Origin: Escherichia coli
GTDB taxonomy: Bacteria > Pseudomonadota > Gammaproteobacteria > Enterobacterales > Enterobacteriaceae
DNA: 64,000 nt
NCBI RefSeq assembly: GCF_001677475.2
Contig: NZ_CP015229.1
Reading direction: 5' to 3' (one strand)
Positions 15,241 through 63,422 of the stretch are shown piece by piece. The notes under the pieces are model-generated. The model made no database searches. It was not told the origin of the DNA and worked only from the letters and a program-made list of their open reading frames with translations. Position 1 is the first letter of the stretch. Each line of letters opens with the position of its first letter. The position numbers and the translations under genes were made by a program.

Positions 15241-17814
15241 TTATTCGCACCTTCCATGGTTCTCTAATACACTATTTGTCGATTGCTGTTGAGTGACATT
15301 GAATTCAACCCGGCAATTTTGGTGCGCATTGTTTCCCCATTTAACGGCGAGTACACCACTGTCCGGCATACCTGTCATATAGACTTGTCCGTTATCGCCG
15401 ACGATAAAGCTGTTTGCATTTTCACTGTTAAGCAGAGTGACAATGGCTCCGAAAGGTATCGCTTCTCCCGATGGTTTATCCAGCATCATTAATACACGAT
15501 TACCTATGCGAATATTAAAGTTTGCTCGCGCAATAGCGCCACGTGTTGGCGTTACGGTACGTGAGGAGAGCTCAACATCTGCATTTTCAGGTAATGCTTC
15601 AGTGTTAAGTGAAATAGTGTTTTCACGATAGGGGCTGATATAAGGAACGATCGTGTAGCCACGAAAGTCGGTGTTTACACCGGTCTGGTTACTGATATTT
15701 ACACCGCTGGCACCTGGCGCTTCAACCAGTGCAGTGGTTTCTCCCAGGGACTGGCTTAGTGTGATGCCATTGGCATGAACAACAATACCCCCATCAATAC
15801 CATAGTTCACCCGGTGCTGGTTCTGGTCATAACTGTACGCAGCATTGACGCGACCATAGGTTCCCTGATAGTCCAGGCTGGCATAACCGCCATTACCTAC
15901 ACCGTGATCCGTTTCACTTTCCTGAATATTCCAGTTGAGGTTCTGATCGTCAAGCGCAGAACCATTCAGGCCTACAGAATGACTGGTATCGCCGTGTTTA
16001 CTGGTATTCAGACTGTAGCTCGCCCAACTGTTATTCAACCAGCGATTTAATGGAATATTGATATTAAATGAGAAAATCTGATCGCTATTGTAGTACTTAT
16101 TACGCGTTGTATTATTGTCGCGGTAATTACTATTGTCGTTGGTATTACGGTTATAACTGTAATTCAGGCTGTAAGTCATGCCGCTCCAGCTATTACTGTA
16201 GCCAACGCCAACAGAACGCATTTGTCGATCGCTGTTCCAGTAATCTTCGCTAATGGCATTAAGCGATACTGAACCAGCATTCTGTCCAAGATTTTGGTTA
16301 AGCAGGAACTCCGCTCGATTACGCCGCCGTTCTGGCATGTTTTGATTATTTTCACGCCAGGTGTCGAGCGTTTCTTGTAGTGAATAATAACCCGATGTGG
16401 AATAGCGGTAGCCCGCGATAGAAACGTTAGTCCCGGTGGCGAGAATGTTTTTACTATAGCGTACCCGTACTGACTGACCGCTGGTTTTCTCTTGTTCCTG
16501 CTGTTGGGACCAGGCCTGGGCGGTATCGATAGATAAGGCGCCCATTTCACCCAGGTTTTTACCCATACCGAAAATTAATGATTGATAATGTTGCGAGAAT
16601 TGCCCACCGCCATATAAGGTAAATCCAACGGGCAGGCCATATATGGCAGTTGCTTGCGTGAAATACTCTTTATCAACACGACTGTCATAAGAGCGGTATT
16701 TCCCGCTGGTCACGCTATATTTCAGGCGGCCTTCACGTTGCAACACGGGGAGCGATGCAAAGGGAACAACCTGGTGCTGTTCACTGCCATCCGCTTCTTT
16801 AACCGTTACGTCCAGATCGCCGCTACTTCCGGTCGGATACATATCCGTGATTTCAAATGCGCCTGGCGAAACATAAGTTTGATAAATGGTATAACCATTT
16901 TGTTTAACAATAACCTGCGCATTGGTTCTGGCGATTCCGCGTACAACAGGTGCATAACCACGCATACTGTCAGGTAACATATCGTCATCAGAAGCTAGCT
17001 GCACACCGCGAAACGGAACGCTATCAAACATATCTGACGGAGAAGAGCTTTCTCCAAGCGTGAGCTGGCTCTTGAGCGAAATGATATTTCGCTGGGCATA
17101 GGTATACAGAGAATCCCAGTTGTTCTGGGTATCACTACCAAAAGTGTTACGACTCCAGGTACTGTAATTACGTAAGCGCCATGGCCCGATATTTAATCCA
17201 GGAAGGAGATTAAGATAATAGCTGTCAGAATCAGATGAATTGCTATCACGCGATTTTGTATTAGCACCGGTGAAATTGTAGTTCAGCAGTAACGCATTTA
17301 TTCCTTCATCCAGATTTTCAGGCGCCACGTATCCACGCGGTTTCGCTTCGACTGCCGCTTGAGGTATTTCCACCATTAGCTGCTGACGGTTAAAAATGAG
17401 TTTTGCCGAGGCCATCGGAATTGCCGCGAGATTGGCGCAGCCTTCATTATTGATCAGTTGCGGGAATAACTCGGTACGAACACCAAATTGCTTTAATTTT
17501 TCCACCGATATACACGGTTGCAATATGTTCTGACCCTGAAGGTCTTTCTGCATACTGAAAGTAATATCGTGTGTACCCAGCGACATTTTGTTTAGGTAAA
17601 CGTCAACACGATAGGTTCCAGGAATCTGACCGACACCCTCTTCAAAAGCGCTAAGATCTGAAATACCTGAGCCAGGGCCGTCGATTCCCAGTAATGCGGG
17701 GTTAAAATATTCGCGTGCATATGCCGATGAGGCGAGAGACAGGGCGCATTGCAGAGCAACGAAACAGGCAATTTTGTTCCGTATCATTTTCTTTTTATTG
17801 ATTCTTGAACTCAT
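15241..17814 (-). CDS. fimbrial outer-membrane usher
   Basis: 857-aa ORF with signal peptide, usher-family length and Cys pair near C-terminus. Confidence 0.85.
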   Translation of the reverse strand: MSSRINKKKMIRNKIACFVALQCALSLASSAYAREYFNPALLGIDGPGSGISDLSAFEEGVGQIPGTYRVDVYLNKMSLGTHDITFSMQKDLQGQNILQPCISVEKLKQFGVRTELFPQLINNEGCANLAAIPMASAKLIFNRQQLMVEIPQAAVEAKPRGYVAPENLDEGINALLLNYNFTGANTKSRDSNSSDSDSYYLNLLPGLNIGPWRLRNYSTWSRNTFGSDTQNNWDSLYTYAQRNIISLKSQLTLGESSSPSDMFDSVPFRGVQLASDDDMLPDSMRGYAPVVRGIARTNAQVIVKQNGYTIYQTYVSPGAFEITDMYPTGSSGDLDVTVKEADGSEQHQVVPFASLPVLQREGRLKYSVTSGKYRSYDSRVDKEYFTQATAIYGLPVGFTLYGGGQFSQHYQSLIFGMGKNLGEMGALSIDTAQAWSQQQEQEKTSGQSVRVRYSKNILATGTNVSIAGYRYSTSGYYSLQETLDTWRENNQNMPERRRNRAEFLLNQNLGQNAGSVSLNAISEDYWNSDRQMRSVGVGYSNSWSGMTYSLNYSYNRNTNDNSNYRDNNTTRNKYYNSDQIFSFNINIPLNRWLNNSWASYSLNTSKHGDTSHSVGLNGSALDDQNLNWNIQESETDHGVGNGGYASLDYQGTYGRVNAAYSYDQNQHRVNYGIDGGIVVHANGITLSQSLGETTALVEAPGASGVNISNQTGVNTDFRGYTIVPYISPYRENTISLNTEALPENADVELSSRTVTPTRGAIARANFNIRIGNRVLMMLDKPSGEAIPFGAIVTLLNSENANSFIVGDNGQVYMTGMPDSGVLAVKWGNNAHQNCRVEFNVTQQQSTNSVLENHGRCE

Positions 17815-54444: not shown

Positions 54445-54856
54445 CTTTTAAAAAAGGGCGGCAGAGCAGTCACGGAGTAAAACTGATACCGCCAAATGTC
54501 ACCAGAATATTGATAACAGAGGGCGTTGTAGCGGGGTTGTCACTTAAGCGTATGGTCAACCTGACAACCCGGTGTCCTCAACGGGGAAAGGCGTCCCTCC
54601 CACCCCCGCCATACTTACCGCCGCGCCATTTCGCGGGTCGCCACAACCGGAAGCGCACGGTCGAATTAAATTTAACGACACCGTGCAGTGAGACGAACTT
54701 CGCCGTGCGCTTTCGTGTTGTGTGCCTGCTTTTAACCACGTCAGGCGAGGTGGTTTCCGTCATTCCCCAACGACAGGAAATCTGTATAATCTGGGTATCC
54801 CCAACGATCCAAGGAAATCATATGACAGAGCAAAGAGCACAAGCAGGTGATGGTGT

Positions 54857-61528: not shown

Positions 61529-62362
61529 GTGACTGAATTAACCAAAGAGCAATTAATCGAAGAAGCCAAATTAAAAATAGCGATTGCGAAATGCTACCCC
61601 AGTTCAGGGATGGCACGGGTAGAGGGCGAGTTATTCAAAATTGCACTGGCATCGCTGGAAGCAGAACCAATAGGTGCTTTCCACATTGTAGAACAGCAAG
61701 TTGACGGAACAAGTTACTATATCAAGGATGGGGAATGGCCTATTGATACTGGGATTATTGAAGTCTACGCCGCCTCACCGATGACGGTAGTGCTGAACGA
61801 TGTATCTGGACCTCTTGCTCTTGCTTACAAAGAGCTTACACCTGCGATTATGCGCAACCATATCGCTGTATTCGAACGATACGGAATAACCCCAAACGAT
61901 AGCATTACTACAATTCATGCGCTTCGAATTGCGCTGGATGGCATAGAGCGGAGCGACGCCATGCTTCATGGACGTCAGCCATGCCATCAAATTACCGCCT
62001 CAATGGCAAAAGCTATTGCGCTTAAACTTGGTGCCGAACTGAATAACGAAGAAGCAGAGATTTTCGCGGATGGGTATAACACCGCCATGCTTCATGCCGA
62101 AAACTTTCGGGAAAATAAGAATTCGTCAACCAATAATTTTCGGATAACCTCGGAAACGTCAACCAACTCTCCGGCAATCCCTGATGAGGTGTTGTCCGCA
62201 ATCCTGAAGGTCGCCAGGCTTCGTGCAGATTTCGATGCTTCTGAAGGTGACAGGCGAGGTATCGGTGGTTGTCTGGATGAGGCCGAGCAAGAACTTATCG
62301 TTACCATTAACAAATACGCCAGTCAGATCGCAGTAGAAGCGATACAGGGGGCGCACCAATGA
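61529..62362 (+). CDS. hypothetical phage protein (277 aa), function unknown
   Basis: Largest ORF of nin-like array, GTG start after hairpin ggccgcccgaaagggcgg; no recognisable catalytic motif. Confidence 0.6.
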   Translation: MTELTKEQLIEEAKLKIAIAKCYPSSGMARVEGELFKIALASLEAEPIGAFHIVEQQVDGTSYYIKDGEWPIDTGIIEVYAASPMTVVLNDVSGPLALAYKELTPAIMRNHIAVFERYGITPNDSITTIHALRIALDGIERSDAMLHGRQPCHQITASMAKAIALKLGAELNNEEAEIFADGYNTAMLHAENFRENKNSSTNNFRITSETSTNSPAIPDEVLSAILKVARLRADFDASEGDRRGIGGCLDEAEQELIVTINKYASQIAVEAIQGAHQ

Positions 62363-62471
62363 GCCGGCCCGATGCATTTGCAGGCGTTGCTATAGCTATT
62401 GCTTTTCCAGTATATGTTATTTGTCGGTGGGGGTAAAAACGTTCGCCGGAATTCACACCAAGGGAGGGAAT

Positions 62472-62576
62472 ATGTCGGATGATATTTCACTGGTAATGGA
62501 AGGCGCTCTGGCTGTTATTGCTGTTGTGGGTGTTTACTGCCTGGTTGTGTTTTTGATGGATCGCCTGGGGAACTGA
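62472..62576 (+). CDS. 34-aa single-TM hydrophobic peptide
   Basis: MSDDISLVMEGALAVIAVVGVYCLVVFLMDRLGN with strong SD AGGGAGGG 3-4 nt upstream; not in track (<60 aa). Confidence 0.5.
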   Translation: MSDDISLVMEGALAVIAVVGVYCLVVFLMDRLGN

Positions 62577-62820
62577 ATTCATTCCGTATGGGAATTCCCA
62601 TATCGGGCAAAAACGGTTTGCTGTAAAGCGAGAGTTAAGTAGAATTGCTGCGGGTGCTTGAGGCTATCTGCCTCGGGCATGCCGCCGTAAGGCAGACAGA
62701 GAAAAGCCCCAGTTAACATTACGCGTCCTGCAAGACGCTTAACATTAATCTGAGGCCATATCTATGACTTGCACACGTAGGTTAGCCTCTTACGTGCCGA
62801 AAGGCAAGGAGAAGCAGGCT

Positions 62821-62976
62821 ATGAAGCAGCAAAAGGCGATGTTAATCGCCCTGATCGTCATCTGTTTAACCGTTATAGTGACGGCACTGGTAACGAGGAA
62901 AGACCTCTGCGAGGTACGAATCCGAACCGGCCAGACGGAGGTCGCTGTCTTCACAGCTTACGAACCTGAGGAGTAA
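62821..62976 (+). CDS. hok: Hok/Gef-family type I toxin (HokD/RelF-like)
   Basis: 51 aa MKQQKAMLIALIVICLTVIVTALVTRKDLCEVRIRTGQTEVAVFTAYEPEE; AAGGAG SD; in-frame upstream ATG at 62764 gives a 70-aa mok-like extension. Confidence 0.85.
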   Translation: MKQQKAMLIALIVICLTVIVTALVTRKDLCEVRIRTGQTEVAVFTAYEPEE

Positions 62977-63014
62977 GAGACCTGGCGGGGGAGAAATCCC
63001 TCGCCACCTCTGAT

Positions 63015-63422
63015 GTGTCAGGCTTCCTCAACGCACCCGCACTTAACCCGCTTCGGCGGGTTTTGTTTTTTCTGTGCATTCTGGTTTACAATTCGCACGC
63101 CAGCCTGAACAACTGGCACCTGCTGCGCCAGCAGAGACAACCGATGGCGCACGATACCAAATTACACAATTCTGATGATTCTGCCGTTTTTGCCAGCAGG
63201 CACGGGCTGCGTTCTCACGCATTCAAATATGACTGGTATCAGCACGATCCCTGCACTGAAGAACAGGCCGAATGGCTGATTCATAACTACCGCAGACGTG
63301 GGTATGAGTTTAAGAAAGCCCTCAGTCTCGATTATCGTCACTGGATAATCTACGTCAGACTCCCTTATTCCGAACGCCCGCCGCGTCCATCCCGCACATT
63401 CCAGCAACGGATCTGGAGGTAA
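63015..63422 (+). CDS. hypothetical protein (Rem-position), start uncertain
   Basis: ORF after hok; likely start at ATG 63144 (92 aa). Confidence 0.45.
   Translation: MSGFLNAPALNPLRRVLFFLCILVYNSHASLNNWHLLRQQRQPMAHDTKLHNSDDSAVFASRHGLRSHAFKYDWYQHDPCTEEQAEWLIHNYRRRGYEFKKALSLDYRHWIIYVRLPYSERPPRPSRTFQQRIWR

What the first reader, a model, noticed from the sequence alone, without database searches (positions are those of the whole stretch)
62700..62976. hok-type type I toxin locus with mok-like in-frame leader; antisense Sok-like RNA expected but not resolved
The 51-aa product is essentially a HokD/RelF-type sequence with a 19-codon in-frame upstream extension from ATG 62764. In hok/sok systems an antisense sRNA overlaps the leader; a palindrome-rich leader is present at 62580-62760 but I could not place a convincing antisense promoter by eye.
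Basis: partly seen in the sequence, partly recalled or inferred. Interest (0 to 1): 0.4.

Follow-up and report, generated by a model that had tools for sequence, protein, structure and literature searches.

The report
Intact prophage hok/mok/sok toxin-antitoxin locus

Summary
A 70-codon ORF (62764-62976) holds a 51-aa Hok toxin (ATG 62821) that is 100% identical to E. coli K-12 HokD/RelF, preceded by a 19-codon in-frame mok leader.

The whole hok/sok regulatory apparatus is present:
- hok promoter (-10 TAGAAT, 62640-62645);
- mRNA 5' end at about 62652, with the tac element;
- a 3' fbi element (63026-63038) that pairs with tac in the predicted fold;
- terminator (63045-63072);
- an antisense Sok gene on the minus strand.

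The ends of the annotated K-12 sokC and sokB genes map onto window 62772/62771 (5') and 62696 (3'). That gives a 77-nt RNA with a 5' tail, a long hairpin and a U-rich end. Its promoter is TTGCCT-17 nt-TAACCT (62807 to 62779). This promoter is too weak a consensus match for a simple scan, but it is identical to that stretch of the experimentally characterised hokW-sokW locus of phage Sp5.

The window is 100% identical to E. coli 08-00022, where RefSeq already annotates hokD. Related loci occur in 4740 of 5426 complete E. coli genomes.

Verdict: already known, low interest. One mildly interesting side observation: the Sok-recognition segment (62757-62778) is about 7 times more diverse than hok synonymous sites.

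The parts
62618..62645 (+). hok/mok mRNA promoter: -35 TTGCTG (62618-62623), 16-nt spacer, -10 TAGAAT (62640-62645)
   Evidence: The -10 is nearly invariant across 7 diverse loci and 72 phage-borne relatives, while sequence further upstream diverges. It lies 7 nt before the conserved mRNA 5' end. Assigned by position and conservation; not detected by the consensus scan.
62652..63072 (+). Full-length hok mRNA (about 421 nt), from the conserved 5' GGGUGCUUGAGG to the intrinsic terminator
   Evidence: The Rfam RF01794 model starts at 62652. Terminator hairpin 63045-63062 is followed by a T run. MFE is -177 kcal/mol, z=-7.9. Transcript ends are inferred, not measured.
62652..62663 (+). tac (translational activator) element at the mRNA 5' end
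   Evidence: Invariant GGGTGCTTGAGG block. It pairs with fbi in the full-length MFE fold and with 62670-62683 (metastable hairpin) in the 3'-truncated fold.
62703..62711 (+). ucb-like box (AAAGCCCCA), paired with the mok SD region in the predicted closed fold
   Evidence: Invariant AAGCCCC block. It pairs with CUGAGGC at 62750-62756 in both folds. An enforced tac/ucb pairing costs +5.5 kcal/mol relative to the MFE of the truncated RNA. The name is assigned by analogy with R1 (PMC9841398).
62752..62755 (+). mok Shine-Dalgarno (GAGG), 8 nt before ATG 62764
   Evidence: Read directly from the sequence. CTGAGGC is conserved in relatives. It lies inside the Sok-complementary region.
62764..62976 (+). 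mok reading frame (70 codons), in frame with hok; its first 19 codons are the leader
   Evidence: ORF list. It is 63/70 identical to VT2-Sakai/Sp5 orf74 'gef homolog'. PHROG 251 'MokW-like host killing' scores 7.7e-33. The 19-codon in-frame ATG is present in 59/71 relatives.
62757..62778 (.). Hypervariable segment around the mok start, complementary to the 5' tail of Sok (the likely specificity determinant)
   Evidence: Pairwise diversity is 0.32 here, against 0.045 at hok third codon positions and 0.06-0.12 elsewhere in the transcript. There are 18 alleles among 102 loci. The window's allele occurs in 124 of 5426 genomes.
62779..62807 (-). Sok promoter: -35 TTGCCT (62807 to 62802), 17-nt spacer, -10 TAACCT (62784 to 62779)
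   Evidence: Read from the sequence. Identical in Sp5 hokW-sokW. -35 is TTGCCT in 56/71 relatives, -10 is TAACCT in 54/71 and the spacer is 17 nt in 71/71. It sits 7 nt upstream of the 5' end transferred from sokC. Not found by the consensus scan, since it matches only 7/12 positions.
62696..62772 (-). Sok antisense RNA (about 77 nt): 5' single-stranded tail, long hairpin, U-rich 3' end; complementary to the mok SD and start codon
   Evidence: The annotated K-12 sokC (16952-17010) and sokB ends map to 62772/62771 and 62696. Fold is -31.9 kcal/mol, z=-5.1, with 0 of 200 shuffles as stable. Five stem pairs change on both sides across 7 loci. RF01794 covers this region in hok-sense orientation.
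62806..62811 (+). hok Shine-Dalgarno (AAGGAG), 9 nt before ATG 62821
   Evidence: Invariant GGCAAGGAGAA block across all 7 loci. It overlaps the Sok -35 on the other strand.
62821..62976 (+). hok toxin gene (hokD allele), 51 aa
   Evidence: RefSeq hokD CDS in the identical record. It is 100% identical to K-12 HokD. Pfam HOK_GEF. The same 51-aa protein is the commonest allele among phage-borne relatives, at 36/71.
63026..63038 (+). fbi (fold-back inhibition) element CCUCAACGCACCC, complementary to tac with one bulged C
   Evidence: Pairs with 62652-62663 in the MFE fold. Forcing it unpaired costs 10 kcal/mol. 92.9% of cells are paired across 7 loci against 32-41% in slid controls for the structure as a whole, with one GC-to-AU double change in hokB.
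63045..63072 (+). Intrinsic terminator of the hok mRNA (AACCCGC-TTCG-GCGGGTT followed by a T run)
   Evidence: Terminator scan. Conserved in K-12 hokD and most relatives.

Best explanation
This is a complete hok/mok/sok type I toxin-antitoxin module of the hokD allele type, carried in the early-gene region of a lambdoid prophage of E. coli.

Proposed mechanism, by analogy with R1 hok/sok and Sp5 hokW-sokW:
1. A weak constitutive promoter (-10 at 62640-62645) makes a stable mRNA of about 420 nt.
2. Its 5' tac element pairs with the 3' fbi element. This keeps the RNA closed, untranslatable and refractory to Sok.
3. Slow 3' trimming removes fbi. The 5' end refolds and exposes the mok SD and start codon.
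4. Ribosomes translating mok (here in frame with hok) open the hok SD, so that the 51-aa membrane toxin is made.
5. The 77-nt Sok RNA, transcribed from the opposite strand (62772 to 62696), is perfectly complementary to the mok SD/start region. While it is continuously made, it blocks mok translation and hence hok translation, and targets the duplex for RNase III.
6. When Sok synthesis stops, through loss of the element or prophage induction, the unstable Sok decays and the toxin is produced.

Shown here: all sequence elements, their conservation, the predicted tac-fbi pairing and the Sok fold. Inferred: transcription, processing, toxicity in this strain and biological role.
For: The Hok ORF is identical to K-12 HokD and carries Pfam HOK_GEF. 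The leader matches Rfam RF01794 at 110.6 bits against a gathering score of 59. The same model hits K-12 hokC, K-12 hokB and Sp5 hokW on the hok-sense strand, opposite to the annotated sokC and sokB. The locus aligns base for base with hokW-sokW, hokC-sokC and hokB-sokB, with invariant tac, ucb-like, SD and promoter blocks. The annotated sokC/sokB ends transfer to 62772/62771 and 62696. The Sok fold has z=-5.1. The full-length mRNA MFE pairs tac with fbi, z=-7.9. That pairing is worth about 10 kcal/mol and is kept in 92.9% of cells across 7 loci, including one compensatory double change. The Sok promoter hexamers and 17-nt spacing are conserved in 54-71 of 71 relatives. hokW-sokW, about 92% identical in DNA, was shown experimentally to be a type I TA with a Sok promoter required for protection (PMC8621323). 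The R1 mechanism is summarised in PMC9841398.
Against: There are no expression data for this strain. The Sok promoter is a poor consensus match (7/12) and the scan does not detect it. The MFE of the 3'-truncated RNA gives the tac/metastable hairpin rather than the published open tac/ucb conformation, and enforcing tac/ucb costs 5.5 kcal/mol. Native chromosomal hokA, hokB and hokC loci did not mediate post-segregational killing in earlier work, as cited in bioRxiv 10.1101/2025.08.07.668861. An intact sequence therefore does not guarantee an active killer.
Confidence: 0.92

Rival explanations
1. The locus is a sequence-intact but physiologically silent relic, like the chromosomal hok loci of K-12. 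It is transcribed little or not at all and contributes nothing to prophage maintenance or lysis.
For: Earlier work found that native chromosomal hokA, hokB and hokC loci did not mediate post-segregational killing and were not rifampicin-activated (cited in bioRxiv 10.1101/2025.08.07.668861). The K-12 hokD copy has lost its whole leader to relBE. Among phage-borne relatives, several copies are visibly disrupted by insertions or deletions (L044/L052, L085/L046, L063).
Against: Every regulatory element is intact here and under visible constraint. Diversity is 0.01-0.08 in the promoters, SDs, tac, fbi and CDS, against 0.29-0.32 in unconstrained or variable segments. The 92%-identical hokW-sokW is active in its native prophage (PMC8621323).
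Confidence: 0.2
2. The real toxic product is the 70-aa Mok-Hok fusion, as annotated in some phage records ('MokW protein', 'gef homolog orf74'). On this reading there is no separate coupling of a 51-aa Hok to a leader peptide.
For: mok is in frame with hok and no stop codon separates them, so ribosomes starting at 62764 must make the 70-aa protein. Several phage records annotate the 213-nt CDS.
Against: The hok ATG has its own invariant strong SD (AAGGAG, 9-nt spacing). In 12 of 71 relatives mok is out of frame with hok while the mok ATG and the hok ORF are both kept, and K-12 mokB is also out of frame. Residues 2-5 of Mok are hypervariable. K-12 HokD lacks the extension entirely.
Confidence: 0.1
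3. The region encodes a sense-strand sRNA, as a literal reading of the Rfam 'sok' hit on the + strand would suggest, and not an antisense RNA.
For: RF01794 matches the + strand at 62652-62826.
Against: In K-12 the same model hits the hokC and hokB sense strand, while the curated sokC and sokB genes are annotated on the opposite strand inside the hit. The model consensus begins with the hok mRNA 5' end and finishes at the hok AUG. The Rfam model therefore describes the hok leader, that is, the complement of Sok plus flanks.
Confidence: 0.02

Closest known systems
hokW-sokW of Sakai prophage 5 (Stx2 phage VT2-Sakai), E. coli O157:H7 (Takada et al. 2021, PMC8621323)
   Same: Prophage-borne. About 92% DNA identity over the locus. 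63/70 identical Mok-Hok. Identical tac, ucb-like block, Sok promoter hexamers, SDs and fbi. Same Rfam hit.
   Different: The Sok 5' tail and mok codons 2-5 differ (window ATGACTTGCACACG, Sp5 ATGCTGAACACATG). The Hok C-terminus differs at 4 residues (FTAYEPEE against FVDYESEK). The sequence after fbi differs: Sp5 lacks the AACCCGC hairpin terminator. The position in the prophage is also different.
hokD (relF) of the Qin cryptic prophage, E. coli K-12
   Same: Identical 51-aa toxin. Near-identical DNA from the hok SD (window 62808) through fbi and the terminator. Same downstream neighbours: a rem-like gene, then ydfU/DUF968.
   Different: In K-12 everything upstream of 62808 is replaced by relB-relE. 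There is no hok promoter, tac, ucb, mok start or Sok gene, and hokD is the third gene of the relBEF operon. The window holds the complete form of the locus.
hokC(gef)/mokC/sokC and hokB/mokB/sokB of E. coli K-12
   Same: Same order of elements and the same Rfam family. mokC is in frame with hokC, as here. The curated Sok ends align to 62772/62771 and 62696. The tac-fbi pairing is kept in hokB through compensatory changes.
   Different: Chromosomal, not prophage-borne. The Sok hairpin is 18-20 nt shorter, giving 57-59 nt RNAs against about 77 nt here. The hokC 3' region, bordered by IS186, does not align with the fbi/terminator region of the other loci. mokB is out of frame. The proteins are 81% identical or less.
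hok/mok/sok (parB) of plasmid R1
   Same: The paradigm for the mechanism: a 19-codon mok leader upstream of hok, tac/fbi fold-back, 3' processing, Sok antisense to the mok start region and RNase III decay (PMC9841398).
   Different: Plasmid-borne with a demonstrated post-segregational killing role. Much more distant in sequence: HokW is 44% identical to R1 Hok according to PMC8621323.

Membership tests
[quoted passage not shown] | Small (about 50 aa) hydrophobic Hok/Gef toxin ORF | tested here: met
   Pfam PF01848 HOK_GEF scores E=2.9e-23, 81.6 bits against a cut-off of 22. 100% identical to K-12 HokD.
[quoted passage not shown] | Overlapping mok leader ORF with its own SD, starting about 19 codons upstream of hok | tested here: met
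   ATG 62764 is preceded by GAGG at 62752-62755 and lies 19 codons before the hok ATG. The same position holds in hokW and mokC, and mokB starts within 2 nt of it. R1 also has 19 codons upstream (PMC9841398).
[quoted passage not shown] | Cis-encoded antisense Sok gene with promoter and terminator, complementary to the mok SD/start region | tested here: met
   Met at the sequence level. A promoter-like TTGCCT-17-TAACCT, a hairpin plus U-rich tail and ends transferred from the curated sokC and sokB genes give 62772 to 62696. Transcription itself could not be tested.
[quoted passage not shown] | Long-range 5' tac / 3' fbi pairing that closes the full-length mRNA | tested here: met
   12 bp with one bulge in the MFE fold. 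Worth about 10 kcal/mol. 92.9% paired across 7 loci, with one double compensatory change and 4 wobble changes.
[quoted passage not shown] | Alternative tac/ucb and SDmok/dcb pairings after 3' processing (open, translatable form) | tested here: inconclusive
   A conserved AAGCCCC block can pair with tac (7 bp, one bulge). However, the truncated-RNA MFE prefers the tac/metastable hairpin, and the tac/ucb form lies 5.5 kcal/mol higher.
[quoted passage not shown] | Leader matches the curated covariance model (Rfam RF01794) | tested here: met
   110.6 bits against a gathering score of 59, full-length match 1-157.
[quoted passage not shown] | Toxicity of Hok, neutralisation by Sok, RNase III cleavage of the duplex | not testable with these tools
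   Supported only indirectly: hokW-sokW at 92% identity (PMC8621323) and the identity of the toxin to K-12 HokD/RelF.
K-12-type hokD (relBEF operon member) | hokD transcribed as the third gene of relB-relE-hokD, without its own leader | tested here: not met
   No relBE lies upstream. The window has the full hok leader where K-12 has relE. The toxin allele is the same but the locus organisation differs.

The most novel reading that the evidence does not exclude
The 22-nt segment around the mok start (62757-62778) pairs with the 5' tail of Sok. It may be under diversifying selection, so that the many hok/sok modules co-resident in poly-lysogenic E. coli form separate specificity groups, where the Sok of one prophage cannot protect against the hok mRNA of another. 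On this reading the window carries a rare allele of such a system. It would explain how up to 10 near-identical hok loci can each remain an independent addiction or lysis-timing device in one genome.
Probability: 0.35. Interest if true: 0.35.

Novelty: already known. Interest (0 to 1): 0.12.

Why it matters
It matters little for discovery. The locus is a textbook hok/mok/sok module, already annotated as hokD in RefSeq and nearly identical to an experimentally characterised prophage system.

It has some practical value in three respects:
- It shows what the complete form of the truncated K-12 hokD/relF locus looks like.
- It gives coordinates for the mok and sok genes, which the public annotation of this genome omits.
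- It shows that the Rfam 'sok' model reports the hok-sense strand, so automated annotation can put Sok on the wrong strand.

The allele diversity at the Sok recognition site could be a starting point for studying cross-talk between co-resident prophage toxin-antitoxin modules.

Tried and rejected
1. The consensus promoter/terminator scan of 62300-63300 found the hok terminator but neither the hok nor the Sok promoter. I rejected it as a test, because the conserved promoters match only 7/12 consensus positions or fewer.

2. The strand of the Rfam hit was taken at face value at first, then checked against K-12. The model is in hok-sense orientation.

3. Folding the 3'-truncated mRNA did not reproduce the published open tac/ucb conformation. 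That step therefore rests on analogy only.

4. I tested whether co-resident prophage copies avoid sharing a Sok-recognition allele. 0 of 11 same-genome pairs were identical, against an 8% background. The expected count is about 0.9, so the result is not significant and is inconclusive.

5. The weak isrK (26.7 bits against a gathering score of 50), ceN48 and Leu_leader hits are below threshold. They overlap hok 3' UTR or leader hairpins and I treated them as chance or structural look-alikes.

6. Pfam, PHROGs and NCBIfam gave nothing for the 34-aa hydrophobic ORF at 62472-62576.

7. In one search the Sok hairpin was counted on a plus-strand alignment. G-U pairs of Sok read there as A-C mismatches, so the 72.8% paired figure underestimates the minus-strand stem.

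8. NCBIfam Hok models matched below their curated cut-offs. This is uninformative, given the exact identity to HokD.

Full report
**What is in the sequence**

The window around the finding holds one 70-codon ORF on the plus strand, 62764-62976. Its last 51 codons begin at ATG 62821, 19 codons after ATG 62764. The 70-aa product matches Pfam HOK_GEF at E=2.9e-23 and PHROG 251 'MokW-like host killing' at 7.7e-33. The 51-aa product is 51/51 identical to K-12 HokD/RelF.

**Where it comes from**

Window 62560-63110 is 100% identical to the chromosome of E. coli 08-00022 (NZ_CP013662.1). RefSeq annotates 62821-62976 there as 'type I toxin-antitoxin system toxin HokD', but annotates neither mok nor sok.

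The surrounding genes belong to a lambdoid prophage: DUF977, a methyltransferase and a DUF551 remnant upstream; a rem-like gene, DUF968/ydfU, rusA and DUF1133 downstream. A DicF RNA gene lies at 54456-54507.

Similar loci occur in 4740 of 5426 complete E. coli genomes, with a median of 2 and up to 10 places per genome. They also occur in 102 phage records, including Stx phages, and in 1455 plasmid records. [quoted passage not shown]

**The regulatory RNA architecture: Rfam match and its strand**

Rfam RF01794 ('sok') matches 62652-62826 on the plus strand at 110.6 bits, against a gathering score of 59. The strand needs care. In K-12 the same model hits the strand of hokC and hokB, whereas the curated sokC and sokB genes lie on the opposite strand inside the hit. 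The model consensus starts with the hok mRNA 5' end and ends at the hok AUG. The Rfam model therefore describes the hok leader, and Sok is its partial reverse complement.

**Conserved blocks**

I aligned the window with Sp5 hokW-sokW, two other phage or plasmid copies, K-12 hokC and hokB, and a Salmonella plasmid hok. These blocks are invariant or nearly so:
- the -10 TAGAAT (62640-62645);
- the 5' end GCGGGTGCTTGAGGC;
- AAGCCCC (62704-62710);
- GCCTCTTAC;
- GGCAAGGAGAA (hok SD, 62803-62813).

**Placing Sok**

I transferred the curated coordinates through the alignment. The sokC 5' end maps to 62772 and the sokB 5' end to 62771. Both 3' ends map to 62696.

Seven nucleotides upstream of 62772, on the minus strand, lies TAACCT (62784 to 62779). 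Seventeen nucleotides further upstream lies TTGCCT (62807 to 62802). This matches only 7 of 12 consensus positions.

The same hexamers occur in Sp5 hokW-sokW. In that locus, mutations in the sokW promoter abolished protection and sokW supplied in trans restored it (PMC8621323). Among 71 phage-borne relatives the -35 is TTGCCT in 56, the -10 is TAACCT in 54 and the spacer is 17 nt in all 71.

The predicted 77-nt Sok has an unpaired 5' end, a long hairpin and a CUUUUCUCU tail. Its energy is -31.9 kcal/mol, z=-5.1, and none of 200 shuffles folds as stably. It is 18-20 nt longer than sokC and sokB because of an insertion that extends the hairpin tip. Most phage-borne copies share this insertion.

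**Fold-back control**

The full-length transcript (62652-63072) has an MFE of -177 kcal/mol, z=-7.9. In that fold the 5' GGGUGCUUGAGG pairs with CCUCAACGCACCC at 63026-63038, just before the terminator at 63045-63062. Forcing that 3' element unpaired costs about 10 kcal/mol.

Across seven loci this helix is paired in 92.9% of cells. For the two tested helices together, 80.9% of cells are paired, against 32-41% when the partners are slid. hokB shows one GC-to-AU double change, and there are four wobble substitutions. This is the tac/fbi arrangement described for R1 (PMC9841398).

In the same fold the mok SD (GAGG, 62752-62755) is paired with the conserved GCCCC block. This matches the 'ucb sequesters the mok SD' description.

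After removal of the 3' end, the predicted MFE forms the tac/downstream 'metastable' hairpin rather than tac/ucb, and the tac/ucb form lies 5.5 kcal/mol higher. The refolding step is therefore taken from the literature and is not demonstrated here.

**Mechanism and what supports it**

The most likely mechanism is the canonical one:
1. The mRNA is stable but closed.
2. Slow 3' trimming opens it.
3. mok translation allows hok translation.
4. Unstable Sok, complementary to the mok SD and start, blocks translation and triggers RNase III decay.
5. Loss of Sok synthesis releases the toxin.

The sequence elements, their conservation and the predicted pairings are shown here. Transcription, processing, toxicity in this host and the biological role are inferred.

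The role could be prophage maintenance or, as shown for hokW-sokW, assistance of lysis and phage release after induction. Earlier work found that native chromosomal hokA, hokB and hokC did not mediate post-segregational killing. A silent-relic reading therefore cannot be excluded, and I rate it at 0.2.

**The in-frame mok**

This is not unusual. K-12 mokC shares its stop codon with hokC and is in frame, whereas mokB is out of frame. Among 71 relatives, 59 have the same in-frame 19-codon leader. The other 12 keep the mok ATG but shift frame through small indels. R1 also has 19 mok codons before the hok start.

Frame is therefore not conserved, but the mok start and its distance from hok are. 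This fits a coupling role rather than a functional fusion protein.

**Relation to K-12 hokD**

K-12 hokD aligns with the window only from about 62808 (the hok SD) to the terminator. Upstream, K-12 has relE and relB. The downstream neighbours (a rem-like gene, then ydfU/DUF968) are of the same kind. The window thus shows the complete form of the locus, of which K-12 retains only the 3' two-thirds. The locus fails the 'relBEF operon member' test although it carries the identical toxin.

**Side observation: a hypervariable recognition segment**

Within the otherwise highly conserved transcript, 62757-62778 is hypervariable. This segment covers the last bases before the mok ATG plus codons 2-5, and is the complement of the Sok 5' tail. 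Pairwise diversity there is 0.32, against 0.045 at hok third codon positions and 0.06-0.12 elsewhere in the RNA. There are 18 alleles among 102 loci.

The window's allele occurs in only 124 of 5426 genomes. It occurs once in the host genome, which has four hok-like places.

This could reflect diversification of Sok-target specificity among co-resident modules. The one test I could run, on same-genome pairs, gave 0 of 11 identical against an 8% background, which is not significant. Two caveats apply: the sample was chosen by an exact 15-mer in tac, and it was de-duplicated.

**Verdict**

The thing is an already known kind of system, essentially already annotated. The only additions are coordinates for mok, Sok and the RNA elements, the Rfam strand caveat, and the allele-diversity observation. 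Interest is low (0.12).

Noticed in passing
window 62757-62778: This segment is complementary to the Sok 5' tail and covers the mok ATG plus codons 2-5. It is about 7 times more diverse than hok synonymous sites (pi 0.32 against 0.045). There are 18 alleles in 102 phage-borne loci, and the window's allele occurs in 124 of 5426 E. coli genomes. It may mark specificity groups. The same-genome test (0 of 11 pairs identical against an 8% background) was not significant.
   Followed up: partly
window 62587-62602 (flanks 62584-62606): A perfect 16-bp palindrome, TATGGGAATTCCCATA, extends with one mismatch to about 22 bp. It lies about 50 nt upstream of the hok mRNA start and just after the stop of the small ORF. 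It occurs in 34 of the 128 loci held. In the loci I inspected it lies just upstream of the hok promoter, except in L083, where it lies downstream of the hok locus. No T run follows on either strand, so it is not an obvious terminator. Function unexplained.
   Followed up: partly
window 62472-62576 (+): A 34-aa ORF, MSDDISLVMEGALAVIAVVGVYCLVVFLMDRLGN, has a strong SD (AAGGGAGGGAATATG) and one hydrophobic helix. It lies immediately upstream of the hok locus. RefSeq calls it hypothetical (WP_001278459.1). No Pfam, PHROG or NCBIfam match. It is a second small membrane peptide next to the toxin.
   Followed up: partly
window 62652-62826; L003 502-654; L004 1067-1218: Rfam RF01794 'sok antitoxin' is built in hok-sense orientation. 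In K-12 it hits the strand opposite to the curated sokC and sokB genes and spans about 155 nt, from the hok mRNA 5' end to the hok AUG. Automated annotation from this model would place Sok on the wrong strand with the wrong ends.
   Followed up: yes
window 62959-62961 (Tyr47 codon UAC, within CUUACGAAC): The hok Tyr47 codon sits in a UACG context resembling the tRNA-Arg anticodon loop (resemblance from my own knowledge). This is the kind of site at which TadA A-to-I editing is reported to recode Tyr to Cys in hokB, with a similar event reported for hokC, hokD and hokE (bioRxiv 10.1101/2025.08.07.668861). I did not examine the local stem.
   Followed up: no
window 62985-63066 (+): A sub-threshold Rfam hit to isrK, a Salmonella Hfq-binding sRNA family (26.7 bits against a gathering score of 50, E=0.004). 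It covers the hok 3' UTR hairpin, fbi and the terminator. It probably reflects two hairpins plus a terminator, not homology.
   Followed up: no
window about 62808; L002 (K-12 Qin) 2120-2350: The homology breakpoint between this complete locus and K-12 hokD falls at the hok SD, at the edge of the Sok -35. Upstream, K-12 has relE-relB instead of the hok leader.
   Followed up: yes
L085/L046, L044/L052, L063, L105/L066 (IMG/VR loci): Several phage-borne relatives carry visibly disrupted copies. In L085/L046 foreign sequence starts right after the hok ATG. In L044/L052 homology is lost after the ucb block. L063 has an internal deletion of most of hok. L105/L066 keep the leader and the 3' UTR around a divergent central region.
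   Followed up: no
window 4297-4633 (-), 6494-6662 (+), 54456-54507 (-): Rfam gathering-level hits to the rne 5' UTR element, SraB sRNA and DicF sRNA. The window therefore runs from core chromosome near rne into a DicF-carrying lambdoid prophage that holds the hok locus.
   Followed up: no
window 61529-62362 (+): A 277-aa ORF is open in the window and matches several PHROGs of unknown function. RefSeq annotates only its last 288 nt (62075-62362) as a partial DUF551 pseudogene. This may be an annotation discrepancy or a mosaic gene.
   Followed up: no
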